From positions 8,960 through 72,959 of the forward strand of contig VMGD01000004.1 in assembly GCA_007376405.1 (NCBI GenBank): a stretch of DNA of 64,000 bases. The letters run 5' to 3'. Below are positions 9,959 to 27,239 of this stretch, piece by piece. The notes under the pieces were generated by a model, which was not told the origin of the DNA, searched no databases, and was given only the letters and a program-made list of their open reading frames with translations. This DNA comes from Microgenomates group bacterium Gr01-1014_7 (GTDB taxonomy: Bacteria; Patescibacteriota; Microgenomatia; Daviesbacterales; UBA10151). Made by a program: the position numbers and the translations under genes. Position 1 is the first letter of the stretch; each line of letters begins with the position of its first letter.

Positions 9959-9990
9959 TTGACAACGAGTAATACAATGGTATAATTGTA
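9959..9990 (+). promoter_or_regulatory. sigma70-type promoter with overlapping palindromic operator
   Basis: TTGACA at 9959-9964, a 16-nt spacer, then TATAAT at 9981-9986. A 10-bp perfect inverted repeat GTAATACAAT/ATTGTATTAC spans the -10 element. Confidence 0.55.
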
Positions 9991-9996
9991 TTACTT

Positions 9997-10242
9997 ATGA
10001 ATTACATAACTACTAATATTAGAATTCCTGAAGAAGATTATTTAAGGTTAAAGATAGAGGCTGCAAGGCAACGCAAGAGTTTAGCCGGAGTAATCAGAGA
10101 AAAAATAGGGGAGGGGAAAATTAAAAAAACATCTCCCGAGGCCTTGATGGCACGTATCAGAAGGCATGCTCACGAAAATGCCAAGTATCTTAAGGGCTTT
10201 GATTCTCTGAAGGCTTTAAGAGAAATTCGAGATGAAAACTGA
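9997..10242 (+). CDS. vapB: VapB-type antitoxin (ribbon-helix-helix/AbrB-like)
   Basis: 81-aa product. Its stop overlaps the start of the PIN gene (ATGA). Confidence 0.6.
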   Translation: MNYITTNIRIPEEDYLRLKIEAARQRKSLAGVIREKIGEGKIKKTSPEALMARIRRHAHENAKYLKGFDSLKALREIRDEN

Positions 10243-10658
10243 TGATAATTATTGACAGTTCAGTGGCCTTTAAATGGTTTAGTCAAGAAGATGAAGGAGA
10301 TATAGATAAGGCTTTAGAGATTTTAGATTTACATCTTCAAAAGAAAGAAATAATTACAGTTCCAGATCTAATTATCTACGAACTCGCAAATGTCTGGGCC
10401 ACTAAGTCCAATCTTCCATTGAAAAGAAGTAAAGTGTTTCTAAAAGATTTTCAAAATAGTCAGTTCGTAATTGAGCAGATTAGTTTTGAATTAATAAATA
10501 AGGCTATGACTTTTTCTAAAAAATACAAGGTTTCTGTATATGATACCATTTATGCAGTTTTAGCAAAAGAAAAGAAGTGTTTACTAATTACAGCTGATGA
10601 GAAGTTTGTAGAAAAGATAAATCTTCCTTTTGTCAAGCTGTTGCAAGAATATAAATAG
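10242..10658 (+). CDS. vapC: PIN-domain ribonuclease toxin VapC
   Basis: MIIIDSSV.. and the conserved acidic residues of a PIN domain (D6, E.., D.., TAD). 138 aa. Confidence 0.8.
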   Translation: MIIIDSSVAFKWFSQEDEGDIDKALEILDLHLQKKEIITVPDLIIYELANVWATKSNLPLKRSKVFLKDFQNSQFVIEQISFELINKAMTFSKKYKVSVYDTIYAVLAKEKKCLLITADEKFVEKINLPFVKLLQEYK

Positions 10659-10668
10659 CCTCAGATTC

Positions 10669-10701
10669 GTCAGGATTTTGTAAGTATTAAATCAAGCACT
10701 T
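10669..10701 (+). repeat. conserved 33-nt intergenic motif (copy A)
   Basis: GTCAGGATTTTGTAAGTATTAAATCAAGCACTT matches 20484-20516 at 31 of 33 positions. Confidence 0.6.
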
Positions 10702-10773
10702 GTTTACAAAAAATACAAATGTTTGACTTTAAGTTTGGTAGGTGATACCATTAACCTATAGCTAAGTATATCC

Positions 10774-11679
10774 ATGACTATTAAACCGATTCACAAAATT
10801 TTTCCTAAAATTGAAGCTGTGTCCAAAAGAAAAAGAAATAGAGTTGGCATTGGTATTTTGCGTGATTCGGAGGAGGTTAGAAAATCACTTAAAAAGGGTT
10901 CTGAACATGCGGATATAATTGTAGTTAGTAAACACAAAATCAAAGGATTCGAAACTGTTGCTTTAGGAGAAGTTTCTGAGACAGAATATTCAAAAGCTTT
11001 AATTAAACTGCTGGAGGACGGAAAAGTTGACGCTATTGTTAGAGGGCAGGTTAAATACGGAGAATTTGAAAAGACATTCAAGGCAAAATTTGGGTTTGTC
11101 TCAGACATTGGAATGTTGGCTTTAATGCAGGATATCTTTGGCAGGCAGTGGTTTTATACCAGCGCTGACCCTTTTGATAAAAGTGAAGTCCCAGAACACA
11201 AGATTGATCTTATTGAAAAAAGTGTTCGTTATATGGAACTATATGGGATTAAGGCTAAAATTGGTGTTTTGGCAGGAGATTTTACATTTGATCGAGGAGA
11301 AAGCGCCTGGATAGATCAAACAATTCACAACGGCGAATATATAGTCAAGGTATTATCTGATGAAGGGTATGATATTAAAAATTATGCTCATTTAATTAAT
11401 GAGGCTGTTGATAATTCTAACTTAATTGTTTTTATTAATGGTTCTCAAGGTAATTTTGTATACAGGTCTCTTTATCAATTCGGGGGAGCTTTAGAAATGG
11501 GTGCTTTTGTGTTTGTACCTACTCCTTACATAGAATCTTCCAGGTATCATTTTAAATATGATGCCCATATTATTGAAGCTAATGCAGAAGTAAATTTACT
11601 CCGAACAGGAGTAAATAAAGTTTATGATCCTAAATCTGACCCCAAGAAAAAATGGAGTAAACATAGGGTGATTATATGA
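10774..11679 (+). CDS. phosphate acetyl/butyryl-transferase (PTA_PTB)-like protein
   Basis: Motifs VDAIVRGQV, KIGVLAGDFT and SNLIVFINGSQGNFVYRSLYQFGGA resemble the PTA/PTB fold. Confidence 0.45.
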   Translation: MTIKPIHKIFPKIEAVSKRKRNRVGIGILRDSEEVRKSLKKGSEHADIIVVSKHKIKGFETVALGEVSETEYSKALIKLLEDGKVDAIVRGQVKYGEFEKTFKAKFGFVSDIGMLALMQDIFGRQWFYTSADPFDKSEVPEHKIDLIEKSVRYMELYGIKAKIGVLAGDFTFDRGESAWIDQTIHNGEYIVKVLSDEGYDIKNYAHLINEAVDNSNLIVFINGSQGNFVYRSLYQFGGALEMGAFVFVPTPYIESSRYHFKYDAHIIEANAEVNLLRTGVNKVYDPKSDPKKKWSKHRVII

Positions 11680-13370
11680 GTGAAACAGCAGTTGCAGAAA
11701 GACCATTAACACATTTTCAGCCGGATAAAGCATTCTCTTCGGAAACCAGAGGATTTGAGCAAACAGAATTTGTAGTTGATCCCAGCTCTGGTCTAATTAT
11801 AAAGGCGGGCAATGCACGAGATGTAACAGCCTGGATCGAAGGAGAAAGAGGAAGAGCCACCGCGGAAAGACCAGTTGATATTAGTGTGGTTCGAGGTGGA
11901 GTTATGCTTCCGGGTTTTGTTGATGCACATGCTCATCCATTTCTTTTTAGTGGGATAGAACTTCCAAATCCTACTGATGTTTCAGGAGCTGAAACTAAAG
12001 AGCAGTTAATTGCTATATTAAAAAAGGCTGTTAATGATAAAGAACCAGGCAAGTTTGTAGTAGCCCAAGGCTTTGATACATCTAAAATAAAAAATTTAAC
12101 TAGAAGGGATCTAGATGAAGTTTCTCCCCATCATAAAATTGTAGTTTATGATCCTTCTTACCATGGTTGTGTTGTCAATTCTAAAGCTTTTGATGAAGTT
12201 GAAAGATACGGGAAAGATTATGAACGTAAAACAGGAAAGCTTCGTGGGGTTAAACAAGCTAACGGACACTTAAAAGAATCCTGGGTCTATATGACCTTTG
12301 AATTAATCGAGGCAGAAGAATCAGTTGAAAGGTTAGTTGAAGCAACCAGAGCAACCTTTGAAGATCATTTAACCAGAGGTATTACTACTATTCAGGACTT
12401 GGAACTTGGTACGTATCAGGAAGTTATTGCCTATTTTATGTTGCGACAAGAGATGGGAGATAAAATCCCGGTAAGTGAGATTTATCTGCAACCCAGAACT
12501 CTAAGGTATGTTTTATCGCAAATTGAAGATTTACGAGGGAGAGGGCTGGTTTCGGGTGAAGATGATATCCAAAGCCTCATTAAAGAGAGAGTTTTGGGAA
12601 TTAAACTTTATGCTGATGGCTCATTTGGAACTCATACAGCTTTGATTGACGAGCCTTATGAAGATACCCATGGTCATGGATTCACTTTCTATACCAATAG
12701 AATGTTTGATGATGCAATTAGATTAGCAAAAGAGATGGGTGTTGAAAATATTGGTGTCCATGCGATTGGTGATAGGGGAATTCAAAGAGCAGTTAATACA
12801 GCCAAAAAATGGCGGGTACTGGCAGAAAAGGCTCATTTAGATCCAACTAGATTTAGAATAGAACATTATGAAATGCCAACTGCAGAAATTAACAGACAAG
12901 TTGCGGAACTTGGTATTTGGGCAGTTCCCCAACCAAATTTTATAGCAGATGATTTGATTTATTCTGATAGAGTTGGAGAAAGAATTCGAATGATCTGTCC
13001 TCATAAAGACATTCTTAATCAGGGAGTTCCGATGATGCTGGGATCAGACAGTATGCCTACTTCTGCACTTTTTGGTATTTTTATGGCAACTCATGCACCG
13101 GAGGTTTCTCAAAGACTAACTTTTGCTGAAGCTCTATTAGCTTATACATTGGCTTCAGGAAGATATGAAGGCAAAGCAAGAGGTGAACTAAAAGAGGGGC
13201 AGCAAGCAGATATAGTTGTTCTGGATCAAAAAGGAGTTGATCAAGTCTTGGAAGGCGGACCACTTGGGACTAGTGACAAAATTGATTCAGGAGAAGTTAG
13301 AGCAGCGCTTGATGCCAATGTTCAAAGAGTTTTCCGCCTGGGTGAAGAAGTACACCGCAGGTCTGCTTAA
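11676..13370 (+). CDS. metal-dependent amidohydrolase (Amidohydro_3/YtcJ-like)
   Basis: PGFVDAHAHPF metal-binding motif in a 564-aa product. Its start overlaps the upstream stop. Confidence 0.7.
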   Translation: MSETAVAERPLTHFQPDKAFSSETRGFEQTEFVVDPSSGLIIKAGNARDVTAWIEGERGRATAERPVDISVVRGGVMLPGFVDAHAHPFLFSGIELPNPTDVSGAETKEQLIAILKKAVNDKEPGKFVVAQGFDTSKIKNLTRRDLDEVSPHHKIVVYDPSYHGCVVNSKAFDEVERYGKDYERKTGKLRGVKQANGHLKESWVYMTFELIEAEESVERLVEATRATFEDHLTRGITTIQDLELGTYQEVIAYFMLRQEMGDKIPVSEIYLQPRTLRYVLSQIEDLRGRGLVSGEDDIQSLIKERVLGIKLYADGSFGTHTALIDEPYEDTHGHGFTFYTNRMFDDAIRLAKEMGVENIGVHAIGDRGIQRAVNTAKKWRVLAEKAHLDPTRFRIEHYEMPTAEINRQVAELGIWAVPQPNFIADDLIYSDRVGERIRMICPHKDILNQGVPMMLGSDSMPTSALFGIFMATHAPEVSQRLTFAEALLAYTLASGRYEGKARGELKEGQQADIVVLDQKGVDQVLEGGPLGTSDKIDSGEVRAALDANVQRVFRLGEEVHRRSA

Positions 13371-13387
13371 GGTTATACTTAGGGCAA

Positions 13388-14716
13388 ATGAAATTTTTAG
13401 CCAACCGAGTTTCCGGGACTGAAGGATGCATTTTTGCTCTTTCTCTTATCCAAGAGGTAGTTAAAACCTGCAATCAAAGAAATAAATATTACTACACTTT
13501 TTATGCCACAGACATCAATACTATTACCAACCAATGTGGTGAGTGGATAAGAGAGGATGAAAACAAAAGTATTGCCCAGCAAATCATGAGTGATGCTAAA
13601 TTAGATAATCTAAATTATTTTAAAAAACTGGAGAAAACAGTTAAAAAAGAAGCTTTGGAATTTAAAAAATACTCGATAAATCTTTTAGGCCAACTCTCTC
13701 CTACTATCTCTGATAAAAAGCTTATTCAAAGTTACAATAGGTTTATCAAAAAATATATTTACTATTATGGACCAGGAATTATAACATTTTTGTATGAATC
13801 AATTATTTCAGATTGGTTATATTTATCTTTATCAAAAAAATATGGAAATGCCACTGAAATTATAAGTAAGCTTCTGCAATCAGATTATCAAAGCTTTTTA
13901 ATGGTTTCAGAGAAGCTGCTTAAAGAAAAACAAATTAAAAAATATCTTAAAGATTTTTTCTTTATGGGTACTACTTACTTTGATGCTCCCATACTTGATG
14001 AGGCCCAAGTTTTAGAAAAAGCAAAAGAGTTGGATGAACATAAAATAAAAACCGAAAGTGTACAAAACCTTAAATTCAAGCTTGATGAGGAAGAGGTGAT
14101 TATAGCAAAGCTTCTAAAAATATCTGCTGTTATAAGAGACTTGAGAAAATATACCAATCTAATTGGAGGATATACCATATTCAGATTTTTGGATGAGGCA
14201 GTTAGAAGAAAAAAGATAAATAGAAATTTAGCAAAAAGAATGTTTTGGTTTGAATTTGAAAAGCTGTTTTTAAATCCTAAAGAAATGCTTCAAACTCTGC
14301 ATAAAAGAAAATTTGTTTCCATTGTTTTTTCGCATGGAAAGGTGAACTATTTTGAGAAAAAAGTCTTGCAAGATAAAACAAAATTTTCATTTAAGGGAAT
14401 TTTAAAGGGCACGCCTGCTTCCAAGGGCACTATTTCCGGAATAGTAAAAATAGTTATGGCCCAAAAAGATTTTCCAGGGTTTAAAAAAGGGCAAATTCTG
14501 GTTGCGGAAATGACCAGGCCGGATTATTTACCTGTAATGAGAAAGGCTGCAGCTATCATTACAGACGAGGGAGGGTTAACCTGTCATGCTGCAATTGTAG
14601 CCAGAGAGCTGGGGATTCCCTGTATTGTGGGGACAAGGATTGCAACCCGGAGTTTAAAAAACGGAGATAAAATCAATTTGGATGCTGAAAAAGGTACAAT
14701 TAGGGTAATTTCATGA
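13388..14716 (+). CDS. PEP-utilizer phosphohistidine (swivel) domain protein, paralog 1
   Basis: C-terminal ..AIITDEGGLTCHAAIVARELGIPCIVGT.. matches the PEP-utilizers mobile domain. The N-terminal ~340 aa are a helical domain of unknown function. Confidence 0.7.
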   Translation: MKFLANRVSGTEGCIFALSLIQEVVKTCNQRNKYYYTFYATDINTITNQCGEWIREDENKSIAQQIMSDAKLDNLNYFKKLEKTVKKEALEFKKYSINLLGQLSPTISDKKLIQSYNRFIKKYIYYYGPGIITFLYESIISDWLYLSLSKKYGNATEIISKLLQSDYQSFLMVSEKLLKEKQIKKYLKDFFFMGTTYFDAPILDEAQVLEKAKELDEHKIKTESVQNLKFKLDEEEVIIAKLLKISAVIRDLRKYTNLIGGYTIFRFLDEAVRRKKINRNLAKRMFWFEFEKLFLNPKEMLQTLHKRKFVSIVFSHGKVNYFEKKVLQDKTKFSFKGILKGTPASKGTISGIVKIVMAQKDFPGFKKGQILVAEMTRPDYLPVMRKAAAIITDEGGLTCHAAIVARELGIPCIVGTRIATRSLKNGDKINLDAEKGTIRVIS

Positions 14717-14811
14717 TTAAACATAAGTTTTTGGAGTCTTTCAAAAAGAATAGGCCTCTCTTTTGATATAATATAGGTGTAATTTGTTCTGTTCAAACAA
14801 GAAATTAAATT

Positions 14812-15270
14812 ATGAAAATGGAATTAAGAAATTTGATTGAGGATTATCTTAAAAAAGCAAAAATGCTTCAGGTTGCTACGGCCAAAGAAAATCAGTCTTG
14901 GGCTTGTACTGTCTATTTTGCCTTTGATGAGAAATTAAATATTTATTGGATCTCTGAACCCACTCGTCGTCACTCAGAGGAAATAAGAAACAACGACAAA
15001 GTTGCCGGAGTAATTGTTCTTCCACATACACCCGGAGACAAAGTACGAGGAATTCAATTTCAAGGAACTGCAAGAGAGCTAACCGATAGAGATGAGGCAG
15101 TCGCAGGTATGAAGTATTATACAGAGCGTTTTGGTATGGAATCAAAGCGTGTAAATACGATTCTTGATGGTACAGATGGTCACGTTTGTTACAAAATTAC
15201 TCCAAGCCTTTACGTCCTATTCGATGAGGCAAATTTCCCAGATAATCCAAGACAGGAGTATAAACTATGA
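14812..15270 (+). CDS. pyridoxamine 5'-phosphate oxidase-like FMN-binding protein
   Basis: ..MLQVATAKENQSWACTVYFAFDEKLNIYWISEPTRRHSEEI.. is typical of the PNPOx-like split-barrel fold. Confidence 0.6.
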   Translation: MKMELRNLIEDYLKKAKMLQVATAKENQSWACTVYFAFDEKLNIYWISEPTRRHSEEIRNNDKVAGVIVLPHTPGDKVRGIQFQGTARELTDRDEAVAGMKYYTERFGMESKRVNTILDGTDGHVCYKITPSLYVLFDEANFPDNPRQEYKL

Positions 15271-16004
15271 AATTAAAAGATAAAGTTGTTCTTGTAACTG
15301 GAGGTAGTAGTGGAATCGGCAAAGCTATTGTTATGGCCTTCGCTAATGAAGGTTGTAATATAGTTTTTACATATAACTCGAAGAAAAAAGAATCAGAAGA
15401 TATTGTTAAAGAAGTTGAACAGCTAGGAATTAAAACATTAGCGGTCAAAGTCGATATGCACTCAGAGGAAGATATCCAAAAACTTTTTGACCAAATTAAA
15501 GAGAAATTTAAAACTTTGGATATTTTAGTTAATAGCGCAGGAATAAATAGACCAAGAGATCTTTTTGATCTTAAGGTTTGGAGAGAAGTTTTTGAAATTA
15601 ATTTGTTTTCAGTTGTCCTTTGTACTGAAAAAGCTGTGGGGTTAATGGAAAATGGAGGTAAGATTCTTAACGTTTCCTCAATTTATGCTGAAGGAAAAGC
15701 TTGTTGGAAAGGCCTTCCTGCTTATGGAGCATCGAAAGCTGCAATAAGCCATTTTACACAAACTCTGGCGAAAAACTTAGCACCTAAAATTTTAGTAAAT
15801 GCAATTGCACCAGGGTATGTAAAAACTCCGCTCTGGATAGACACAACTGAAGAAGATTTTGAAAATAGTGGTAAAGAACAATTAATTAAAAGGATGATTA
15901 TGCCTGAAGAAATTGCTGAAATGGCTGTCGCAATTGTTAAAAACGATGCCATGACAGGTGAAGTTGTTGTGATCGATGGTGGGATAAGTCTAAAAACGGT
16001 TTAG
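15267..16004 (+). CDS. short-chain dehydrogenase/reductase (FabG-like)
   Basis: VLVTGGSSGIGKAI Rossmann motif, NSAG, and YGASKAA (YxxxK). Confidence 0.85.
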   Translation: MKLKDKVVLVTGGSSGIGKAIVMAFANEGCNIVFTYNSKKKESEDIVKEVEQLGIKTLAVKVDMHSEEDIQKLFDQIKEKFKTLDILVNSAGINRPRDLFDLKVWREVFEINLFSVVLCTEKAVGLMENGGKILNVSSIYAEGKACWKGLPAYGASKAAISHFTQTLAKNLAPKILVNAIAPGYVKTPLWIDTTEEDFENSGKEQLIKRMIMPEEIAEMAVAIVKNDAMTGEVVVIDGGISLKTV

Positions 16005-16084
16005 ATTTGAATAGACCTCACATTATAAACTCTACCCGATACTTTGGAGAAAAAGATATATTTGTTGCTCCTGTTTTATACCAA

Positions 16085-16519
16085 TTAGTGTCCCAACAAG
16101 ATGTCATTCCGAGCGATTAGCGAGGAATCTTCCACGATAGGATTAAATAATATTTCCATATAAATCCTTAAGCTCCGGATTAAATTCTATAATTAATTTA
16201 TCTTTCTTTTTTCTTGACCAGCCCTTAATCTGTTTTTCTCTTTCTATGGCAGAGTTTGGGTCTTCAAATACTTCAAAATATAAAAGATCATGGAGGGAAT
16301 ATCTTTTGGTAAAGCCATCAGCTAAATTATTTTTATGCTCGTATATTCTTTTTACTAAATTACCTGTTACTCCTGTATATAGAGTTGTTCTTCTGAAATT
16401 ACTTAAAATGTAGACAAAGTAATACCTGGGAGCCATATAAATCATTATACTGGAAGATTGCCACGTCAGTCGCTTCGCTCCTTCCTCGCAATGACAATTC
16501 TTATACTTTAGTGTCCCAA
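16085..16519. mobile_element. GIY-YIG gene cassette flanked by imperfect inverted repeats and an 11-12 bp direct repeat
   Basis: Direct repeat TTAGTGTCCCAA at 16085-16096 and 16508-16519. The inward-facing inverted repeats are TGTCATTCCGAGCG at 16103-16116 and, on the reverse strand, TGTCATTGCGAGG at 16477-16489. Both flanks also share ..AATCTTCCA. Confidence 0.4.
16143..16445 (-). CDS. GIY-YIG nuclease family protein (UPF0213-like)
   Basis: YYFVYILSNFRRTTLYTGVTGNLVKRIYEHK matches the GIY-YIG motif. Confidence 0.75.
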   Translation of the reverse strand: MIYMAPRYYFVYILSNFRRTTLYTGVTGNLVKRIYEHKNNLADGFTKRYSLHDLLYFEVFEDPNSAIEREKQIKGWSRKKKDKLIIEFNPELKDLYGNII

Positions 16520-16701
16520 ATCTTAAAAATCTGTGCCTAAAACCCCCTCCTTATCATAAATGGATGCTAATGAACTACCCCACAGCAAGCTGACGGGGTA
16601 TAATAAACAAATTAACCTAATTTCTAATTGACCTAAATAATTTAAAATTTAGTCATTGGGATTTGTTTAAAAATTAGTAATTAGAAATTAGAAATTTAAA
16701 T

Positions 16702-18132
16702 ATGGACATTAAACAAAAATTTGTAGAAGCATTCAAAAGAATCTGGTATATACAGGGCTTTAATGCTTATCCCCTGTTTTTAAACAGGGCCGGGATTAGC
16801 GGGTTTGAAATGGAGAAAGTTTTAGGCTATGGCTACTCCATTATACTTAATAGTTACAGAAACGGTTATTGTGAAATGCATTATTTAAGCGCTGATTTAA
16901 AAAGAATTTGGGAAAGGGTAAAAGAAAACCTTAAAAAAGATTCAAAATATGTTGAAAAAATTGCCAGCAAATACTTTAAGATTTTTGAAAAACACGAGAA
17001 ATTATTCAAGCAAATGGATAAACTTAATTTAAGCAAATTAGAAGAGCCAGAATTAATTCAGTTGCTCAAAAACTGCTCCCAAGCCTCAATTGATGCTGTT
17101 GGAGTGGCTCACATTGTTGACCCGATTGGCATTGGCAGTGAAGTAGAATTTAAACAAAAACTGCTTTCGGAAATTAAAAATAAGGATAAATTCAATGAAT
17201 ATTTCTCAATTTTAACCACCCCTTTGAAACTGTCTTTCCTGGGCCGGGAAGAGGAAGATTTGCGAAAAATTGGAAACTTAACCGGGATAAAAAGAAAAAA
17301 AGCGCTAAAGCTCCATTTAAAAAAATATTCCTGGGTAAATAACAGCTATGCCGGGCCAACTGAAATTACTTTAACAAGTTTGTCAAGACGTTTGAATTTA
17401 TTGAATAAAGAAAAAGTAAAACCTAAACTCCTTAAAACTGAACTGATAAATGAGCTATCCTTAAGCAAAGAGATAAAAGATTTAATTGCAGTAATTGACT
17501 TTTCAACCATCTGGCAGGACAGGAGGAAAAAGAATGTCCTAATTTCTATCTCTTATTTTAGTAAAGTGCTGGAGGAAGTAAGCAAAAGAATAAGCATCCC
17601 TTCCAAATTACTTTATTTTTTTGGAATTGAAGATTTTAACAGCATAAATAGTTTTAAAGATATAAAAAAGTTTAAGGGGGAGCTGGAAGAAAGAACGAAG
17701 GGAGTATTTTTCCTGCTTGATCAGGGGCAAGAATTTGAAGTTTGCGGGCAAGATTATCAAACTCTTTATAAAATTTATAGTGAGGTTGAAAAAGGGCAGA
17801 GCAGACCAGTAGAAGACATACATGGATCAGTTGCCAACAGGGGTACAGCACTTGGCAAAGTTGTAATATGTAAAGATTTAGAGTCAATTCAAAAAGTAGA
17901 GACAGGTAATGTGATTGTAGCCTCAATGACCAGACCTGAATTTATGCCGGCTTTAAAAAAAGCTTCTGCTATTGTAACTGATGAGGGAGGGGTAACATGT
18001 CATGCCGCGATTCTATCAAGAGAACTGGGCATTCCCGCAATTATTGGCACTAAAATTGCCACCAGGATTTTACGGGACGGGATGAAAGTGGAGGTAAGGG
18101 CAAACCATGGAATTGTCAGAATCATTAGCTGA
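16702..18132 (+). CDS. PEP-utilizer phosphohistidine (swivel) domain protein, paralog 2
   Basis: C-terminal ..AIVTDEGGVTCHAAILSRELGIPAIIGT.. Confidence 0.7.
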   Translation: MDIKQKFVEAFKRIWYIQGFNAYPLFLNRAGISGFEMEKVLGYGYSIILNSYRNGYCEMHYLSADLKRIWERVKENLKKDSKYVEKIASKYFKIFEKHEKLFKQMDKLNLSKLEEPELIQLLKNCSQASIDAVGVAHIVDPIGIGSEVEFKQKLLSEIKNKDKFNEYFSILTTPLKLSFLGREEEDLRKIGNLTGIKRKKALKLHLKKYSWVNNSYAGPTEITLTSLSRRLNLLNKEKVKPKLLKTELINELSLSKEIKDLIAVIDFSTIWQDRRKKNVLISISYFSKVLEEVSKRISIPSKLLYFFGIEDFNSINSFKDIKKFKGELEERTKGVFFLLDQGQEFEVCGQDYQTLYKIYSEVEKGQSRPVEDIHGSVANRGTALGKVVICKDLESIQKVETGNVIVASMTRPEFMPALKKASAIVTDEGGVTCHAAILSRELGIPAIIGTKIATRILRDGMKVEVRANHGIVRIIS

Positions 18133-19513
18133 TAAACCAATCTGGCGGACTCTGCTCACTCGTGAAGGAGTAGATATTACTACTCTGTCTGTATTAAATG
18201 AGGCCTTTTATAAATTTATTTGGGAATATACTAAGACGCGCGATTTAGCTTATTTTACCCATTTTAAGGATAGGGTATTTACCCACTATATTGCCTTGGA
18301 TCATAAAGAAGTAGGACGCTCTCTTAGGTTCAAATATTTTCCCAATCAAGAGGTAATAAAAAAGCTTTACTCAAAAGGCCTGGTAATTTTAAAAAAAGCC
18401 AAAAAAGATGATGTAACTTTAAGTAAAATATCTTCTCCTGGTTTTTCACAATTAAAAGAACTGTTAGCGGATTTTTATCAGGGATACCGGGAAATTAATT
18501 TTGTCTACAGCATTGCCGGCTGGCTGGCTATTGAGGCCTGGCAGAGCGATTTTGAGGAGTTACTGGAAAAATTAATCCGGCACAGTAATTTAACCGGCCA
18601 ATCCGAAAGAATCAAAGCTTCTGTTTATAAACCATGGAAAAAAACAGCCTTGCCCCAAATCCAGGAAAAACAATCCTTAGGTATTTCTCCTCGTAAACTG
18701 GCAGGGCAATACCAGTTTTTAAGAAGCTGGACATTAATTTGGTATAAACCAATTACAGTTAGTTGGATCAGGAACTTGGCAGTAGGGAATCAGGTTAAGC
18801 AAGAAGTCTATACCAAACAGCAGTTAAAAGAAATGCTCAAGCCCAACAAGCAAGAGTGGGAGATGATTGAGCTTACTCCATACCTGACCTTTTTTAAAGA
18901 CTGGAGAGATGATTTAAGAAGAGCTTATGTTTATAACTGGTCTTTTCTTTTTGACAAAATTGCCAAAAAATTTAATATTTCCCGGGAAGATTTAGGTTAC
19001 CTGACGTTTGATGAAATTAAAAAAGCTTTGTATAATGAAAAAATTCCCCTGCATCTTATTAAAGAAAGAAAAATAAATGGCTGTTTCATAGCCTTTGATT
19101 TAAAAACGAAAAAAATTCAGGCAATTAAGCTTTCCAAAGTTTATAGCCATGCCATGTCCCTGGCAAAAAAGTTAAGTAATAACAATGTAGTTTTGGGAAC
19201 AGTGGCCCAGACCGGAGTAGTTCAGGGCCATGTTAAAATTATCACAGGCTTTCATGATATTAAGAAAGTTCAAAAAGGTGAAATCCTGGTTGCTAATACC
19301 ACTCACCCCAATTATCTTCCGGCCATGCAAAAAGCCGCGGCTTTTATAACTAATGAGGGCGGAGTGATTAGCCACGCGGCAATTGTGGCCAGGGAAATGA
19401 AAAAGCCCTGTATTGTCGGAACAAAAAACGCCACTTTAATTTTACATGACGGAGATTTGGTGAAAGTTGATGCAAATGCGGGTAAAGTGATAATTTTAAA
19501 GAAAGCAGGGTAA
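18107..19513 (+). CDS. PEP-utilizer phosphohistidine (swivel) domain protein, paralog 3
   Basis: C-terminal ..AFITNEGGVISHAAIVAREMKKPCIVGT.. The start may lie a few codons downstream, since it overlaps the upstream gene by 26 nt. Confidence 0.7.
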   Translation: MELSESLADKPIWRTLLTREGVDITTLSVLNEAFYKFIWEYTKTRDLAYFTHFKDRVFTHYIALDHKEVGRSLRFKYFPNQEVIKKLYSKGLVILKKAKKDDVTLSKISSPGFSQLKELLADFYQGYREINFVYSIAGWLAIEAWQSDFEELLEKLIRHSNLTGQSERIKASVYKPWKKTALPQIQEKQSLGISPRKLAGQYQFLRSWTLIWYKPITVSWIRNLAVGNQVKQEVYTKQQLKEMLKPNKQEWEMIELTPYLTFFKDWRDDLRRAYVYNWSFLFDKIAKKFNISREDLGYLTFDEIKKALYNEKIPLHLIKERKINGCFIAFDLKTKKIQAIKLSKVYSHAMSLAKKLSNNNVVLGTVAQTGVVQGHVKIITGFHDIKKVQKGEILVANTTHPNYLPAMQKAAAFITNEGGVISHAAIVAREMKKPCIVGTKNATLILHDGDLVKVDANAGKVIILKKAG

Positions 19514-20464
19514 ATGTTTACTAAAAATTTTACTGAAATTACAAAGGAAGATACTAATATTGCCGGAGGCAAAGGGGCTTCTTTGGGAGAAATGACCGGG
19601 GCCGGGATTCCTATTCCTCCCGGATTTGTAATTTTAACTTATGGCTTTGACTGTCTTTTGCATTCCAACCAGCTGGTTTCGGAAATAGATTCTGCGCTAC
19701 ATGGGGTAAACCATGAAGATGCAAATTCAGTAGAACAGGCATCAGAAAAAATTAAAGGCTTGATTTTAAATGCCAAAATCCCTCCAGATCTTGAAACAGA
19801 AATTCTTAATGCTTTTGAAAATTTAAACTGTGAATTTGTGGCTGTTAGATCTTCAGCCACAGCAGAGGATGGATCAAGCACTTCCTGGGCAGGAGAACTG
19901 GAATCTTTCCTTAATACCACCAAAGAAACTTTACTGGAAAATGTCAAAAAATGCTGGTCCTCACTTTTTACCCCCAGAGCAATTTTTTACCGGTTTGAAA
20001 AAAAATTACATGAAACCCCTGTTTCAGTAGCTGTTGTTATCCAGAAAATGGTTAATAGTGAAGTTTCCGGAGTTGCTTTTTCTGTCCATCCCGTAACTGA
20101 GGATAGAAACCAACTGATAATTGAGGCGGGCCTTGGACTGGGAGAGGCAATAGTTTCCGGATCTTTAACTCCTGATTCTTATATAATTGACAAACAAGAT
20201 TTTTCTATAATTGATATTAGTATTGCTGAACAGGAAAGGAAAATGGTCAAAAAGATAAACGGAGGAAATGAATGGATTGATGTACCAGAAAGTGAAAGAA
20301 GCTTACAAAAACTTAATCCTGAACAAATTATTGAGCTTGCAAGGCTGGTTGTACAAATTGAAAACCATTATGGCTTTCCGGTTGATGTGGAATGGGCAAA
20401 AGAGCAGAAAAGATTTTTTATTACCCAATCCAGACCGATCACCACTCTAACCTCCAGACCCTAA
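19514..20464 (+). CDS. standalone PEP synthase/PPDK N-terminal ATP-grasp nucleotide-binding domain protein
   Basis: TKEDTNIAGGKGASLGEMTGAGIPIPPGFVI, VRSSATAEDGSSTSWAGELESF and DVEWAKEQKRFFITQSRPIT align along the whole PpsA N-domain. The ATG follows the upstream stop directly. Confidence 0.8.
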   Translation: MFTKNFTEITKEDTNIAGGKGASLGEMTGAGIPIPPGFVILTYGFDCLLHSNQLVSEIDSALHGVNHEDANSVEQASEKIKGLILNAKIPPDLETEILNAFENLNCEFVAVRSSATAEDGSSTSWAGELESFLNTTKETLLENVKKCWSSLFTPRAIFYRFEKKLHETPVSVAVVIQKMVNSEVSGVAFSVHPVTEDRNQLIIEAGLGLGEAIVSGSLTPDSYIIDKQDFSIIDISIAEQERKMVKKINGGNEWIDVPESERSLQKLNPEQIIELARLVVQIENHYGFPVDVEWAKEQKRFFITQSRPITTLTSRP

Positions 20465-20483
20465 GTAATTCACGCTCTTTTTT

Positions 20484-20516
20484 GTCAGGATTTTGTAAGG
20501 AATAAATCAAGCACTT
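20484..20516 (+). repeat. conserved 33-nt intergenic motif (copy B)
   Basis: GTCAGGATTTTGTAAGGAATAAATCAAGCACTT. Like copy A, it is followed by GTTTGACTT about 100 nt downstream (20618-20626; the copy A equivalent is at 10721-10729). Confidence 0.6.
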
Positions 20517-20643
20517 AATTAGTTAATGGTTTATGGTATATCGGAAGATTGTATATCGGAAACGATAATCGATAAACGAAAAGCCGATTAGGCGTTACGA
20601 TAAACAAATAGGAAAGTGTTTGACTTAAATCTTTGGAGGTTAT

Positions 20644-23600
20644 ATGCTGAATATAGAAAGACCAATTATGGCAGAAGGAACATCAGGACCAGAGGGAGGA
20701 GCAGTATCTCCTGGAGTATCTAAACCAGCGACTGTAGAAAGTAGGATTCCAGCAAACGAAATACGTGCCAACGCTGTGCTTACTGATACAGCGCGCTTAC
20801 AAAAGGCACAAGAAGCATTACGAACTCAACTTACAAAAGAGCAGCAAGATGCACTTTTAAGCGCCCATCAGGAGGCGGTAGGTGAGCTAGGTCAGGATCC
20901 TAGCCAGGAAGCTGGTGTGGGTAATTACACTCAAACTCAGCTTCTGCGAAAAGCAAGAATCCTAAATGAAGCTGGTTTTAGTAAAGAACAGATACATACT
21001 CTTTTAGAATCAGGATTAGCTGGAGTGCTTCCTGCTGCAGAATTTACAACATTTGATCCTGATGTTTATTCAAAAGACCATCGGCTCCGAAGCATTGCAG
21101 GGGAGATAGTGAGTAGTGTTACGGCAGGGGTTGCGGATGAAGATTTATTCAAAAGAAATTTGAGTCGACTTGAAAAATTAGTGGACGGAGGATTAGTAAC
21201 TGAGCTGGCTTTAGCTGATCAGCTTCGATTAAATCTGGAATTATGGCGCTTGGAGGCAACAGGTGAAATACCTCTTCAGACAGAGGATCCGCTTCTTACC
21301 GCACGTGATTTGGAAAGAATAAGACAAGAAGCAGCTAAAGAGGGTGGTAGCCAGTTTAGTATGGCTAGGGCTAAGTATGAGCATTTTAGCAGAATTAGCA
21401 ATAGAACAAGAAATCTATCTCCTCAACTTCAGATTGAACTCCAGAAAAAAAGAAAGGATGCTAGGGAAGGTCTCGTTAGGTTTAAGGAGGAGAAGCTTGA
21501 AGATGAGCCAGCTGCCCAGCAGGTAATAGAAGGAAGAACAGTGAACGTAGTTTTAAGAGATTTTAGAGAAGCAGTATTTAAATTCTATAAAAAGTTCAAG
21601 GCAGCCAAATCAAATGAGATATATGGTGGAGATAAAGATGCCGTTTTAAGACAGGCAAGACATGGTGGAGATTTTGAGGAGACAATGTTTGATGACTCAA
21701 TCCCTCTAAAAGAATTGGAAGGAATTTATGGGGGGTTGCTCAGATATATGTATACGGGTATTGCTCAGGAGATGGATAAAGAACAACACAGAAGAGATAC
21801 AAAAGATCCTTTAAACCCGATAGCACAGCAAGAATTTGAGGCAATTAAAAAACGCAGGGCCAAAGAGAGAAGAAGAGATAGAAAATACGAGACACGCTCA
21901 ACACATTATGGAGTAATCTATGAATTTAGCGCGGAAAATGCCGGAGAACTGCCTGACGCTGTTTTGGATTATACAAAAGACCAGATTTTTGCATTGCTGA
22001 AAAATCCCCCGGAAGATATAGACAAAGAAGTACGCAAAATTGAGGAAGAATCAGGGAGATATCTTGAGCAAAACCGTATCCGTTTAATTGAAGAAGGACA
22101 AGATATACCAGAGACTCATCCGGAGTTCGTAAGAGCCAAAGCTTTGGCTAAAGCAATACCAATTGTGCTGGGGTACGAACAAATACTTTATAAAGGCGGT
22201 GAGGAATCTGCACCAGCATATAAACTAAAAGCTGCAGCTGATTCTGCCGGTATCGAAGATGCAATTTATTTGGAAAACCCCACAGCGGCTTTACAAATGC
22301 ATCTGATTTCTACCTATAAAGATGGGATATATTGGTTAGGTCAGCGCTGGGATACGGAAAAGCCTGAAAGTGAGGATTATATACCCGGAGAAGGCGCGAC
22401 AAACGACTTAAGGAAAGAGATAGCAGAGGAGATTATTGGGTATGCGGCAACTCATGAGCTGTATTTATCTGATGAAATGACTCGCGGTGTATATCTTGAT
22501 GCAAATGGTGACCCGATTTTGGGTGAGGACGGTGAGGCAATTGGAGCTTTTACTTATAGGGAAGGGAAGCATTCGGGTGGAAGGGACCTAAGATATGCCT
22601 TTGATGACAATATAGAACAGCTACTTTTAGATCCTGATGGGTCAATTTGGACAAATACAGAGAGTAGACTTAGAGAACGAGGAGAAAGCCAGGATGAGAT
22701 CAACAAAGCCCGGGAAAGACACAGTATAAGGGTGGCAGTTTTCCAAAGGATCAAGGACAGGCATGATATAAGGGAAGGACTAAGTTTTGTTACCTATCAG
22801 GAAATAGCCAATTTAAAAAGACAAAATGGTGGCCGGTTTCCAACAGAGCAACAATTAGCAGCCGTATCCAAGCTGAAAAAGGATATTATGCTAGGTCAGT
22901 TGCAGCAACAAGGACTCTCGCCCCAACAAGCTGAAGAGCGGTTACGTCAAATAATGGATGAGCACAGAAAAGAGGGAATAAGAGCAAGAATAAAAGATCA
23001 GCTGAATCAGAAGACTAATTTAAGATATAGTGCTATCGCACAATTAACCCGTATAGCCCAGCTTGATCTTGAGGATGCTGATGATAAAGAAAGTCCCAGC
23101 GGTCCGCTTCATGACAAAATTCTTTGGAAATGGGTAGAGGATTATAACGCGTATCTAATTAAGATACGTCAGTCAAAATGGCATCCAAGCGGTTGGGACA
23201 GAGTAAGAGTTGATATTGATCGGCCTACCAAAGTTTTGGACAGAGAGCTTGAGGGGGATGAGCTGATGGCCATGTTTGAACTAAATCCTCTCATACTTAA
23301 ATACCCCGGACAGCTCAGTGATGAAGAAAAAGCCGAGAAAGATTACAAACTGGATGAGGCCAGATTCGGTTTTCAACTGGCCAGAAGTTATCAGGTTTTC
23401 CATGCGGTAGATACTATAACTGGAGGTATGAGAACCAGGTTAACAGATCCGAATACAGGAAAGTATTTAGGAAAATTATTTGGCGATGATGAGGAAACTA
23501 AAAAAGTAAACAGGCGTTTGGGGTTAACAGATGCACAAGGGAATGTAATAGATCCAAATAGGAAAATAGTGCGGGTATTTGATGTGGTTCAGACCAGGCT

Positions 23601-27201: not shown

Positions 27202-27239
27202 AATACTAATTAAAGCCCTTTTAATTAAAAAATGCAACC

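What the first reader, a model, noticed from the sequence alone, without database searches (positions are those of the whole stretch)
10774..20464. Split, multi-paralog PpsA/rifampin-phosphotransferase-like phosphotransfer system
Three adjacent or nearby proteins (13388-14716, 16702-18132, 18107-19513) each end in the PEP-utilizer swivel His domain (GG[LV][TI][CS]HAAI..RE[LM]..P.I[VI]GT). Their ~340-aa helical N-terminal domains are unrelated to one another. A single standalone PpsA/PPDK-N ATP-grasp protein (19514-20464) is translationally coupled to the last of them. In known enzymes (PEP synthase, PPDK, rifampin phosphotransferase) these domains sit on one polypeptide, with the ATP-grasp domain first. 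Here the ATP-grasp domain is separate and last, and it would have to serve three different substrate-binding/His-carrier subunits. The operon also encodes a PTA/PTB-like acyl-phosphate enzyme, an Amidohydro_3 enzyme, a PNPOx-like flavoprotein and an SDR. Together this suggests a small-molecule phosphorylation, inactivation or activation pathway that I do not recognise as a described system.
Basis: partly seen in the sequence, partly recalled or inferred. Interest (0 to 1): 0.7.

Follow-up and report, generated by a model that had tools for sequence, protein, structure and literature searches.

The report
Split multi-subunit RPH-like dikinase cluster
This candidate-phyla bacterium encodes one ATP-binding kinase subunit next to three different substrate-binding subunits that each carry the phosphate-shuttling histidine domain, a many-partner version of a known split kinase type that turns out to be common in ultra-small bacteria and archaea but whose substrates are unknown.

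Summary
The ORFs and domains are real. Three proteins (13388, 16702, 18107) end in a PEP-utilizers swivel-His domain, and one stand-alone PPDK_N ATP-grasp protein (19514) is translationally coupled to the last of them.

- The three N-terminal domains are not unrelated. They are divergent paralogs with the rifampin-phosphotransferase (RPH) substrate-binding fold.
- Splitting the ATP-grasp from the substrate/His subunit is not unprecedented. Two-component RPH-like dikinases (PpsAB, HpeHI, CreHI, AcvAB) are described.

It is not a fragmented ppsA. There is no PEP/pyruvate TIM barrel, and the ~315-aa ATP-grasp protein recurs intact across CPR and DPANN genomes.

What appears undescribed is the stoichiometry. 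In CPR and DPANN genomes, one highly conserved ATP-grasp gene sits in arrays with up to 7 different X–swivel genes. Single ORFs also occur that fuse one ATP-grasp to 2–4 X–swivel modules.

The best reading is a hub-and-spoke ATP-dependent dikinase (ATP + substrate → AMP + Pi + substrate-P) with several specificities. The substrates are unknown. Phosphatase genes (His_Phos_1, HAD, HD) are the most recurrent neighbours. The MtxX-like gene recurs occasionally, and the PNPOx and SDR genes do not.

Verdict: a new variant of a known kind, of moderately high interest.

The parts
10774..11679 (+). MtxX/Mmp4-like protein (PTA / isocitrate-dehydrogenase-like fold, function unknown). It is the first gene of unit 1 and overlaps the next gene by 4 nt.
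   Evidence: No Pfam hit. NCBIfam TIGR03270 scores 91.8 bits, below the 190 cutoff. PDB 9nzy (MTH_231 MtxX) matches at E 2.7e-12. Fold and unknown function are from PMC12978539. Homologs lie next to swivel genes in L015, L039 and L044.
11676..13370 (+). Amidohydro_3 family metal-dependent hydrolase
   Evidence: PF07969 E 6.8e-47. An ortholog sits between swivel genes in the closest relative, L003/L004. It is otherwise not recurrent.
13388..14716 (+). Dikinase substrate/His-carrier subunit 'SwA'. It has an RPH-type helical substrate-binding (X) domain (about aa 1-330) and a swivel phosphohistidine domain (aa 365-436, nt 14480-14695). The catalytic His400 is at nt 14585-14587.
14812..15270 (+). 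PNPOx/YhbP-like small flavoprotein-fold protein, probably a local passenger
   Evidence: PF01243 E 7.7e-9 and NCBIfam YhbP below cutoff. It is not found near the system in any of the 86 other loci.
15267..16004 (+). Short-chain dehydrogenase/reductase, probably a local passenger
   Evidence: PF13561/PF00106 E 1e-53 to 1e-55. It is not recurrent in related loci.
16085..16519 (-). GIY-YIG nuclease cassette (gene 16143-16445, minus strand) bracketed by a perfect 12-bp direct repeat, TTAGTGTCCCAA. It is a likely mobile insertion that splits the cluster into two transcription units.
   Evidence: PF01541 E 3.6e-15. The repeat occurs only at 16085-16096 and 16508-16519, with 0 expected by chance. Imperfect inverted repeats lie at 16126-16139 and 16446-16459.
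16702..18132 (+). Dikinase substrate/His-carrier subunit 'SwB'. It has an X domain (about aa 1-365) and a swivel (aa 400-470, nt 17899-18111). The catalytic His434 is at nt 18001-18003. It belongs to the largest X-domain family (c0).
   Evidence: PF00391 E 1e-22. It is 27% identical over 430 aa to the 18107 protein. Cluster c0 has 45 modules in 31 loci. c0 links the other two X families at 99.1% and 99.8% HHalign probability. The X domain alone finds 690 representative clusters.
18107..19513 (+). Dikinase substrate/His-carrier subunit 'SwC'. It has an X domain (about aa 1-355) and a swivel (aa 389-459, nt 19271-19483). The catalytic His423 is at nt 19373-19375. It overlaps the SwB gene by 26 nt and abuts the ATP-grasp gene.
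19514..20464 (+). Stand-alone ATP-grasp (PPDK_N) nucleotide-binding subunit 'AG', the proposed shared ATP-dependent charger of the swivel histidines
   Evidence: PF01326 E 2.4e-95. It matches the N-terminus of PEP synthase NF005057 at 322.8 bits and RPH at 266 bits. RPH ATP-site residues are kept: K22=K20, R117=R, E297=E, T136=S. Relatives at 60-79% identity include over 100 stand-alone clusters of about 315 aa.

Best explanation
The cluster encodes a multi-subunit, ATP-dependent small-molecule dikinase of the rifampin-phosphotransferase (RPH) / PEP-synthase lineage. It is built as one nucleotide-binding subunit plus three paralogous substrate-specific subunits.

Proposed mechanism, by analogy with RPH, PpsAB and HpeHI:
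1. The 316-aa ATP-grasp protein binds MgATP.
2. The C-terminal swivel domain of an X-Sw subunit docks transiently on it.
3. The swivel His (H400, H434 or H423) attacks the beta-phosphate, giving His-pyrophosphate and AMP.
4. The gamma-phosphate is hydrolysed to Pi.
5. The His~P swivel swings back onto its own helical X domain and phosphorylates the small molecule bound there.

Net reaction: ATP + substrate + H2O -> AMP + Pi + substrate-P.

The three X domains are divergent members of one fold and belong to three different, widely conserved subfamilies, so the three subunits most likely phosphorylate three different substrates while sharing one ATP-grasp 'charger' (hub and spoke).

What is shown: domain identities, intact catalytic motifs, the RPH-like fold of the X domains, conserved 1:n gene arrays, and 1:n fusion proteins.

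What is inferred: the chemistry, the sharing of the ATP-grasp subunit, and small-molecule substrates.

The substrates are unknown. The recurrent phosphatase neighbours suggest that phosphorylation is either a transient activating step or is balanced by dephosphorylation.
For: - Domains and motifs.
- ATP-site residues K22, R117 and E297 of RPH are conserved in the ATP-grasp protein.
- All three X domains are homologous.
- Fused homologs have the RPH order AG-X-Sw.
- Biochemical precedent for trans-acting subunits: in HpeHI, PpsAB and CreHI the ATP-grasp and X-Sw subunits form no stable complex, the X-Sw subunit alone does phospho-exchange, and a His-to-Gln change kills activity (PMC12167813).
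- One-to-many stoichiometry is conserved. Of 29 loci with a stand-alone ATP-grasp, 28 have 1-7 swivel genes all on the same strand as it. L007 has 5 swivel genes followed by one PPDK_N gene.
- Rosetta-stone fusions: 10 ORFs carry one PPDK_N and 2-4 swivel modules, e.g. L022 at 2217 aa.
- The conservation gradient is hub-like: ATP-grasp 63%, swivel 53%, X domain 18% mean pairwise identity in the same 29 loci.
- Arrays are mixtures of different X subfamilies.
Against: - There is no biochemical data for any CPR or DPANN member, and no co-fold could be run.
- Only SwC is translationally coupled to the ATP-grasp. SwA lies in a separate unit 5 kb upstream behind an inserted GIY-YIG cassette, so its use of this ATP-grasp is inferred.
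- The window covers only 64 kb of the genome, so a second ATP-grasp gene elsewhere cannot be excluded.
- DPANN arrays L001 and L002 have 3-4 swivel genes and no PPDK_N gene within 10 kb. Either the ATP-grasp acts from a distant locus or another phosphoryl donor exists.
- HMM-level similarity of the X domains to RPH covers only their last 70-100 residues. The rest rests on predicted structures.
- Substrate identity is entirely open.
Confidence: 0.7

Rival explanations
1. Xenobiotic or antibiotic inactivation battery. The subunits are RPH-like resistance kinases, each inactivating a different hydrophobic natural product made by hosts or neighbours. This rival concerns the physiological role, not the mechanism.
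For: - RPH is the only solved structural relative of the X domains.
- RPH family members act on antibiotics (PMC4844700; PMC12167813).
- X domains are very diverse, with over 55 clusters among 175 modules.
Against: - Individual subfamilies are well conserved across CPR and DPANN. SwC orthologs are 42-58% identical and keep many invariant Arg, Lys and Asp residues. That fits conserved polar metabolites better than a shifting set of hydrophobic drugs.
- NCBIfam RPH equivalogs score 48-73 bits against cutoffs of 999-1700.
- Phosphatase genes as the commonest neighbours would undo an inactivating phosphorylation.
- There are no PADLOC hits.
Confidence: 0.12
2. Phospho-activation ligases (PigC/RedH/HapC-like) or pathway-initiating kinases (as in the phenol and Hpe pathways). 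Phosphorylation of a carbonyl or hydroxyl makes it a leaving or activating group for a following reaction by neighbouring enzymes (MtxX-like, amidohydrolase), and a phosphatase removes the phosphate afterwards.
For: - PigC/RedH-type models align to SwC beyond the swivel (residues 284-463).
- The Hpe and phenol pathways use phosphorylate, carboxylate, dephosphorylate logic.
- Recurrent His_Phos_1, HAD and HD neighbours account for 18 of 121 operon-like neighbours.
- His_Phos_1-FGase fusions occur in 8 loci.
- An MtxX-like gene is adjacent to swivel genes in 4 loci.
Against: - No carboxylase (UbiD-like) or other consistent second enzyme accompanies the arrays.
- PigC/RedH scores are far below cutoffs (57-74 vs 1300-1350).
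- Most arrays consist only of dikinase genes.
Confidence: 0.13
3. Only SwC pairs with the ATP-grasp, as an ordinary 1:1 two-component dikinase like HpeHI. SwA and SwB then use other ATP-grasp proteins or another donor, or are non-catalytic paralogs.
For: - Only SwC is translationally coupled to the ATP-grasp.
- Characterised systems are 1:1.
- DPANN arrays exist without a nearby PPDK_N gene.
Against: - All three subunits keep the catalytic His motif.
- SwB overlaps SwC in the same unit.
- Arrays with 2-7 swivel genes per single ATP-grasp gene recur.
- AG-(X-Sw)2-4 polyproteins physically tie several swivel modules to one ATP-grasp.
- Only one PPDK_N is found in the 64-kb window.
Confidence: 0.08
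4. Fragmented or frameshifted ppsA (PEP synthase) pseudogenes. The ATP-grasp ORF would be a displaced 5' piece, and the N-terminal domains would be degraded PEP/pyruvate-binding barrels.
For: The ATP-grasp and swivel domains score best against bona fide PEP synthase models (NF005057: 322.8 and 118-136 bits).
Against: - PF02896 (the PEP-utilizers_C TIM barrel) is absent from all the proteins.
- The X domains are all-helical with the RPH fold at pLDDT 90-94.
- The domain order X-Sw is wrong for PpsA.
- The ORFs are intact, and over 100 intact full-length ortholog clusters are listed for the ATP-grasp and for SwC, and about 70 for SwA.
- All scores are below the PEP synthase cutoffs.
Confidence: 0.01
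5. Protein-directed phosphorelay. The swivel subunits pass phosphate to proteins, in the manner of PTS enzyme I, and not to small molecules.
For: - The swivel domain is shared with PTS enzyme I.
- His_Phos_1 neighbours could be SixA-like phosphohistidine phosphatases (the SixA analogy is from general knowledge).
Against: - There is no HPr, EIIA or HPt-like gene in the arrays.
- The X domain has the RPH small-molecule-binding fold, not the EI HPr-binding domain.
Confidence: 0.04

Closest known systems
Two-component RPH-like small-molecule dikinases: phenylphosphate synthase PpsAB(C) of Thauera aromatica, HpeHI of Rhodococcus rhodochrous, CreHI, AcvAB, phenylphosphoamidate synthase PasAB
   Same: The division of labour is the same. 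A stand-alone ATP-grasp subunit (HpeI/PpsB) works with a subunit made of a helical RPH-like substrate-binding domain and a C-terminal swivel His (HpeH/PpsA), and the genes are adjacent. The GGxT[SC]HAA motif and the presumed ATP -> AMP + Pi chemistry also match (PMC12167813; PMC7500099).
   Different: - Here there are three (elsewhere up to seven) different X-Sw subunits per ATP-grasp gene, instead of 1:1.
- The subunits are smaller: 442-476 aa against about 640 aa, and 316 aa against about 360 aa.
- NCBIfam PRK08296-type models match only the swivel, not the X domain.
- No carboxylase or aromatic-catabolism genes accompany the arrays.
- The hosts are CPR and DPANN organisms with reduced genomes.
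- The ATP-grasp is no closer to the 387-aa stand-alone PDB chain 9goj (187 bits, probably HpeI) than to RPH (196 bits) or archaeal PEP synthase (227 bits). An independent fission is therefore likely.
Rifampin phosphotransferase (RPH-Lm; PDB 5fbs, 5fbt, 5fbu, 5hv1)
   Same: It is the only solved structure whose fold covers the X domain plus the swivel. Fused CPR/DPANN homologs have the same domain order, ATP-grasp - X - swivel. The ATP-site residues are conserved.
   Different: - In the window the system is split into separate polypeptides.
- The X domain is about 330-365 aa against about 450 aa in RPH.
- Sequence similarity in X is limited to its last 70-100 residues.
- RPH equivalog cutoffs are missed by a wide margin.
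- There is no evidence for rifamycin as a substrate.
PEP synthase (PpsA) / pyruvate phosphate dikinase
   Same: The ATP-grasp and swivel modules are most similar in sequence to those of PEP synthase (PDB 8a8e and 9dae). The His-mediated dikinase mechanism is shared.
   Different: There is no PEP/pyruvate-binding TIM barrel (PF02896 absent). The swivel is C-terminal and follows a helical domain, instead of sitting in the centre. The function therefore cannot be PEP synthesis by the known mechanism.
PigC / RedH / HapC prodiginine-condensing enzymes
   Same: They have the RPH-type three-domain architecture. Their models align to SwC upstream of the swivel.
   Different: They are single polypeptides of about 880 aa. 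Scores are far below their cutoffs, and there is no prodiginine context.
PTS enzyme I -> HPr -> multiple EII (functional analogy only)
   Same: One general phosphoryl-charging component serves many substrate-specific modules, and the swivel-His domain is shared.
   Different: The donor is ATP through an ATP-grasp domain, not PEP through a TIM barrel. There is no HPr or EII, and each specificity module carries its own swivel His.

Membership tests
RPH-type small-molecule dikinase superfamily (ATP-grasp + helical substrate-binding domain + C-terminal swivel His) | PPDK_N-type ATP-grasp domain with the nucleotide and phosphate ligands Lys22, Arg117, Thr136 and Glu297 (RPH-Lm numbering) | tested here: met
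   PF01326 E 2.4e-95. The alignment to 5fbs shows K20=K22, R=R117, S=T136 (conservative) and E=E297.
RPH-type small-molecule dikinase superfamily (ATP-grasp + helical substrate-binding domain + C-terminal swivel His) | C-terminal swivel phosphohistidine domain with the GGxT[SC]HAA[IV] catalytic His motif | tested here: met
   PF00391 is present in all three proteins. The motifs are GGLTCHAAI, GGVTCHAAI and GGVISHAAI. The motif definition comes from PMC12167813.
RPH-type small-molecule dikinase superfamily (ATP-grasp + helical substrate-binding domain + C-terminal swivel His) | Helical substrate-binding domain with the RIF-binding-domain fold immediately upstream of the swivel | tested here: met
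RPH-type small-molecule dikinase superfamily (ATP-grasp + helical substrate-binding domain + C-terminal swivel His) | All three domains on one polypeptide in the order ATP-grasp - X - swivel | tested here: not met
   In the window the ATP-grasp is a separate 316-aa protein encoded after the X-Sw genes. Fused homologs with the RPH order do exist elsewhere.
RPH-type small-molecule dikinase superfamily (ATP-grasp + helical substrate-binding domain + C-terminal swivel His) | Dikinase chemistry: ATP + substrate -> AMP + Pi + phospho-substrate via His~PP and His~P | not testable with these tools
   This requires enzymology.
Rifampin phosphotransferase proper (NCBIfam NF041857 / NF000283) | Score above the equivalog cutoff, and rifamycin as substrate | tested here: not met
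   Swivel subunits score 48-73 bits and the ATP-grasp 175-266 bits, against cutoffs of 999-1700.
Two-component phenolic dikinases (PpsAB / HpeHI / CreHI / AcvAB) | Separate ATP-grasp subunit and X-swivel-His subunit encoded by adjacent genes | tested here: met
   The family is described in PMC12167813.
Two-component phenolic dikinases (PpsAB / HpeHI / CreHI / AcvAB) | X domain of the HpeH/PpsA type (about 45% pairwise identity within the subfamily; subunit of about 70 kDa) | tested here: inconclusive
   NCBIfam PRK08296-type models (568-633 aa, C-terminal swivel) match only the swivel region of the window proteins. That these models represent HpeH/PpsA is my assumption. No HpeH or PpsA sequence was available for a direct comparison. 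The subunits here are 50-55 kDa.
Two-component phenolic dikinases (PpsAB / HpeHI / CreHI / AcvAB) | 1:1 subunit genes within an aromatic catabolic cluster that includes a carboxylase | tested here: not met
   The window has three X-Sw genes per ATP-grasp gene, and related loci have up to seven. No UbiD-like or other carboxylase genes occur among 121 operon-like neighbours.
PEP synthase (PpsA; NF005057 / TIGR01418) | C-terminal PEP/pyruvate-binding TIM barrel (PF02896) with a central swivel | tested here: not met
   PF02896 is absent from all the proteins. Scores are 322.8 and at most 135.8 bits against a 598 cutoff. The swivel is C-terminal.
MtxX / methanogenesis marker protein 4 (for the 10774-11679 gene) | TIGR03270 equivalog score, and occurrence in methanogens | tested here: not met
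   It scores 91.8 bits against a 190 cutoff. It is homologous to MTH_231 (PDB 9nzy, E 2.7e-12, residues 134-247 only). It is a distant homolog in a non-methanogen.

The most novel reading that the evidence does not exclude
CPR bacteria and DPANN archaea possess a previously undescribed hub-and-spoke dikinase platform. One highly conserved ATP-grasp 'charger' loads the swivel histidines of a large, ancient repertoire of substrate-specific modules. These modules comprise dozens of X-domain subfamilies and occur as separate subunits, as RPH-like single fusions, or as AG-(X-Sw)2-4 polyproteins. The platform would provide a substantial part of the small-molecule phosphorylation capacity of these reduced genomes, for example salvage or activation of host-derived metabolites, and it would be balanced by co-encoded histidine-phosphatase, HAD and HD phosphatases.
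Probability: 0.35. Interest if true: 0.8.

Novelty: new variant of a known kind. Interest (0 to 1): 0.6.

Why it matters
CPR and DPANN organisms have genomes of about 1 Mb and very incomplete known metabolism, yet some devote 5-10 kb to arrays of these genes. Automated annotation labels them 'PEP synthase', 'pyruvate, water dikinase' or 'phenylphosphate synthase'. That can create false gluconeogenesis or phenol-degradation calls in metabolic reconstructions.

Recognising them as modular RPH-like dikinases with one shared ATP-grasp subunit has three consequences:
- It corrects those annotations.
- It defines a large family of unknown-substrate kinases that can be tested directly in vitro, because precedent shows the subunits work when mixed.
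- It offers a natural example of one nucleotide-binding domain servicing several phosphocarrier and substrate modules, including 2000-aa polyproteins with four swivel domains. That is mechanistically interesting for how swivel-domain enzymes dock and exchange partners.

Tried and rejected
1. Fragmented ppsA pseudogene: rejected. There is no TIM barrel, the ORFs are intact, and full-length orthologs are conserved.
2. 'Unrelated N-terminal domains': rejected. A direct HHalign of the 13388 and 18107 families without the swivel gave only P=6e-4, or 2% probability with other settings. The link is secure only through the 16702-type family and the structures.
3. UDP-GlcNAc 2-epimerase + swivel fusions as a substrate clue (P0193 and others): rejected. 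The Epimerase_2 hit overlaps the swivel domain, and these proteins are (X-Sw)2 fusions.
4. Anti-phage defence system: no PADLOC hits.
5. Riboswitch or other RNA leader that could reveal a ligand: none in 9700-21000 at E<=1. The promoter and terminator scans were not above the shuffled expectation.
6. The 313-aa gene that follows the SwC ortholog in the closest relative (L003) is neither an ATP-grasp nor MtxX-like.
7. Equivalence of RPH's phosphate/His-contacting Arg666-Glu667-Lys670 with the invariant [KR]-D-x-R motif (SwC K264-D265-W-R267; SwA R250-D251-L-R253-K254): could not be tested.
9. Literature searches for a description of CPR/DPANN dikinase arrays found nothing. The library does not cover all journals, so this is not proof of absence.

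Full report
**1. What is in the sequence**

The window is identical to a contig of 'Microgenomates group bacterium Gr01-1014_7', a CPR bacterium (100% matches P0001, P0121 and P0241). Pfam assigns the following:

| ORF | Assignment |
|---|---|
| 10774-11679 | no Pfam family |
| 11676-13370 | Amidohydro_3 |
| 13388-14716 ('SwA') | PEP-utilizers swivel, residues 365-436 only |
| 14812-15270 | PNPOx-like |
| 15267-16004 | SDR |
| 16143-16445 (minus strand) | GIY-YIG |
| 16702-18132 ('SwB') | swivel, residues 400-470 only |
| 18107-19513 ('SwC') | swivel, residues 389-459 only |
| 19514-20464 ('AG') | PPDK_N across the whole protein (E 2e-95) |

None of them has the PEP/pyruvate-binding TIM barrel. 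The three swivel domains carry the catalytic His in the canonical motif (GGLTCH, GGVTCH, GGVISH). That motif is defined for this enzyme class in PMC12167813. The TAA stop of SwC is followed directly by the ATG of AG, and SwB overlaps SwC by 26 nt.

**2. Corrections to the observation**

(a) The N-terminal domains are not unrelated.
- SwB and SwC align at 27% identity over 430 residues by BLASTP.
- With the swivel domains removed, the SwB-type family (cluster c0) matches the SwC family at 99.1% HHalign probability (E 7.5e-19, 310 columns). It matches the SwA family at 99.8% (E 7e-29, 298 columns).
- The direct SwA-SwC comparison is weak on its own (P 6e-4).
- AF2 models of SwC (pLDDT 89.9) and SwA (pLDDT 93.7) show the same order of secondary-structure elements, including two helices of 40-45 residues.

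(b) The cluster is not one operon.
- The minus-strand GIY-YIG gene sits in a 423-bp cassette bracketed by a perfect 12-bp direct repeat. The repeat occurs nowhere else in the window, with 0 expected by chance. This looks like a mobile insertion.
- The result is two same-strand units: MtxX-like/Amidohydro_3/SwA/PNPOx/SDR, and SwB/SwC/AG.

(c) 'ATP-grasp last' is not a property of the system. In related loci with a stand-alone AG, it is last in 13, first in 11 and in the middle in 5.

**3. What the proteins are**

- This is the same result reported for HpeH, whose only full-length structural relative is RPH.
- At sequence level, RPH/PigC-type models reach about 70-100 residues upstream of the swivel.
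- AG aligns end to end with the ATP-grasp domains of archaeal PEP synthases, of RPH, and of the 387-aa stand-alone chain 9goj, which is probably HpeI (187-227 bits).
- AG retains the RPH nucleotide-site residues Lys22, Arg117 and Glu297, with Ser in place of Thr136.
- A few database homologs of SwC are fused behind a PPDK_N domain in the RPH order ATP-grasp - X - swivel (P0006, P0010, P0109).

The system is therefore an RPH-like dikinase whose ATP-grasp is a separate subunit.

**4. The split is already known**

- HpeI is a crystallised stand-alone ATP-grasp homologous to that of RPH.
- HpeH is an RPH-like substrate-binding domain plus a swivel.
- HpeH alone catalyses phospho-exchange, and His581Gln abolishes activity.

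PasAB for aniline is a further example (PMC7500099). One metagenomic study has already labelled DPANN homologs 'phenylphosphate synthase', while noting that no carboxylase is present (PMC8091004).

**5. What is different here**

A scan of one genome per species, anchored on AG, returned 80 loci from many CPR classes and from DPANN phyla (Woese-, Nano-, Pace-, Micr- and Aenigmarchaeota). My ORF and phmmer analysis of these loci plus eight context loci shows three forms.

(i) Stand-alone AG genes embedded in arrays of swivel genes.
- There are 29 such loci (27 of the 80 anchored loci, plus L007 and the window); a further 8 anchored loci had a stand-alone AG but no swivel gene, or a split AG. In 28 of the 29, all swivel genes are on the same strand as AG.
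- The arrays hold up to 7 swivel genes (L082 7; L059 and L032 6; L015, L062 and L064 5).
- An independently fetched Patescibacteria locus, L007, has five swivel genes followed by one PPDK_N gene according to the database's own gene calls.

(ii) 35 single fusions AG-X-Sw of 654-862 aa.

(iii) 10 ORFs with one PPDK_N followed by 2-4 X-Sw modules.
- Pfam confirms these. L022 is 2217 aa with 1 PPDK_N and 4 PEP-utilizers. L009 is 1+4, L051 is 1+3 and L066 is 1+2.

Some fused AGs are also accompanied by additional stand-alone swivel genes (L009, L026, L039). These polyproteins are Rosetta-stone evidence that one ATP-grasp domain works with several swivel modules.

Conservation is graded as expected for a shared hub. 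In the same 29 loci, mean pairwise identity is 63% for AG, 53% for the swivel and 18% for the c0 X domains. AG homologs are 60-79% identical across CPR and DPANN.

The 175 X modules fall into more than 55 clusters and two length classes (about 240 and about 350-400 aa). Arrays are mixtures of different clusters. The window's three subunits belong to three different ones.

Individual subfamilies are nonetheless well conserved and widespread:
- SwC orthologs are 42-58% identical over the full length in both CPR and DPANN, with many invariant Arg, Lys, Asp and Trp positions.
- SwA has about 70 full-length orthologs at 35-48% identity.
- The SwB X domain alone retrieves 690 clusters at 50% identity from 1.84 billion representatives, 99 of them at E<=1e-30.

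**6. Neighbourhood**

The window's accessory genes are mostly not part of a conserved system.
- PNPOx and SDR homologs occur in no other locus.
- Amidohydro_3 recurs only in the closest relative, L003/L004.
- The first gene is a distant MtxX/Mmp4 homolog: TIGR03270 at 91.8 bits against a 190 cutoff, and PDB 9nzy at E 2.7e-12. Its fold is PTA/isocitrate-dehydrogenase-like and its function is unknown (PMC12978539). It sits directly beside swivel genes in three other CPR loci, L015, L039 and L044.

A Pfam census of 121 operon-like neighbours (within two genes of a dikinase gene, or interleaved with the array; same strand, gaps <300 bp) puts phosphohydrolases on top: His_Phos_1 in 9, HAD in 5 and HD in 4. 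Isochorismatase follows with 3 and Amidohydro_3 with 2. Clustering also found a 640-aa His_Phos_1-FGase fusion in 8 loci and a HAD-NUDIX fusion in 3. No carboxylase, HPr/EII-like or defence genes recur. No Rfam element precedes the units.

**7. Mechanism proposed**

By homology with RPH (PMC4844700) and PpsAB/HpeHI:
1. AG binds MgATP.
2. A swivel His attacks the beta-phosphate, giving His~PP and AMP.
3. The gamma-phosphate is released as Pi.
4. The His~P swivel returns to its own X domain and phosphorylates the bound substrate.

I infer that AG serves SwA, SwB and SwC in turn through transient docking. The domain identities, motifs, folds, array stoichiometry and fusions are shown here. The chemistry, the sharing of AG and the small-molecule nature of the substrates are inferred.

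The substrates are unknown. The conserved, charge-rich X-domain positions and the phosphatase, HIT and NUDIX neighbours are more suggestive of polar metabolites than of rifamycin-like drugs. This is weak evidence.

**8. Caveats**

- There is no biochemistry for any member of this CPR/DPANN group.
- The structures are predictions.
- No co-fold was possible.
- The window covers only part of the genome.
- DPANN arrays L001 and L002 lack a PPDK_N gene within 10 kb.
- SwA is separated from AG by 5 kb and an inserted element.
- Several MAG titles among the loci ('uncultured Gammaproteobacteria', 'Methanosarcinales') are probably mislabelled and were not used for taxonomic claims.
- Literature searches found no description of the 1:n arrays or the multi-swivel polyproteins. 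The searchable library is incomplete.

**9. Verdict**

The interpretation 'split PpsA/RPH-like phosphotransfer system, not a pseudogene' is right. The claims that the split is unprecedented and that the N-domains are unrelated are wrong.

The genuinely new aspect is a conserved one-ATP-grasp-to-many-X-swivel organisation, including multi-swivel polyproteins, that is widespread in CPR and DPANN and has unknown substrates. It is a new variant of a known kind, with interest 0.6.

Noticed in passing
window 16085-16519: A small GIY-YIG nuclease gene (16143-16445, minus strand) lies in a 423-bp cassette. The cassette is bracketed by a perfect 12-bp direct repeat, TTAGTGTCCCAA, that is unique in the window, and it has imperfect terminal inverted repeats. 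It looks like a mobile insertion with a target-site duplication inside the dikinase cluster.
   Followed up: partly
L022:9989-16642, L009:9995-14998, L011:9986-15703, L051:5980-10893, L088:8111-13198, L026:10001-14485, L068:8457-12602, L031:9989-13945, L084:9974-13570, L066:9995-13387: Giant single ORFs of 1130-2217 aa in DPANN and CPR MAGs. Each encodes one PPDK_N ATP-grasp followed by 2-4 [variable domain - swivel His] modules. Multi-swivel dikinase polyproteins of this kind are, to my knowledge, not described.
   Followed up: partly
L044:12469-14391 and homologs in L003, L004, L039, L040, L046, L066, L071: A 640-aa fusion of a histidine-phosphatase (His_Phos_1) domain with an N-formylglutamate amidohydrolase (FGase) domain recurs next to dikinase arrays. 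Stand-alone His_Phos_1, HD and HAD-NUDIX proteins are also enriched among the neighbours.
   Followed up: partly
window 10774-11679; L015:7793-8647, L039:1559-2419, L044:14400-15260: Distant homologs of the 'methanogenesis marker' MtxX/Mmp4 occur in CPR bacteria, directly beside swivel-subunit genes. The family is usually regarded as methanogen-specific, and its function is unknown.
   Followed up: partly
L001:10001-14327 and L002:8943-14380 (Woesearchaeota): Arrays of 3-4 swivel-subunit genes with no PPDK_N gene within 10 kb. They are flanked by two HIT-family genes on one side and ATP-citrate-lyase-like genes on the other. The phosphoryl donor for these arrays is unresolved.
   Followed up: no
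window 20644-25389: A 1581-aa, highly charged ORF starts 180 nt downstream of the ATP-grasp gene on the same strand and has no Pfam match. The adjacent 612-aa minus-strand ORF (25399-27237) also has none.
   Followed up: no
window 7190-8260 (-), 9997-10658 (+), 28179-29366 (+): The flanking genes are a PrgI-family (type IV secretion-like) membrane protein, a small antitoxin-like ORF overlapping a PIN-domain toxin gene (VapBC-like pair) immediately upstream of the cluster, and a Fic-domain protein.
   Followed up: no
(AG and SwC homologs): The ATP-grasp subunit and SwC orthologs are as similar between CPR bacteria and DPANN archaea (about 60-66% and 45-50% identity) as within CPR. This suggests inter-domain transfer or unusually strong constraint. 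Several loci carry MAG titles ('uncultured Gammaproteobacteria', 'Methanosarcinales') that are probably taxonomic mislabels.
   Followed up: no
P0193, P0194, P0200; L009 and L066 ORFs: Pfam Epimerase_2 (PF02350) gives weak partial hits that overlap the swivel domain. The precomputed PF02350 label on P0193 is therefore probably spurious and could mislead annotation.
   Followed up: yes
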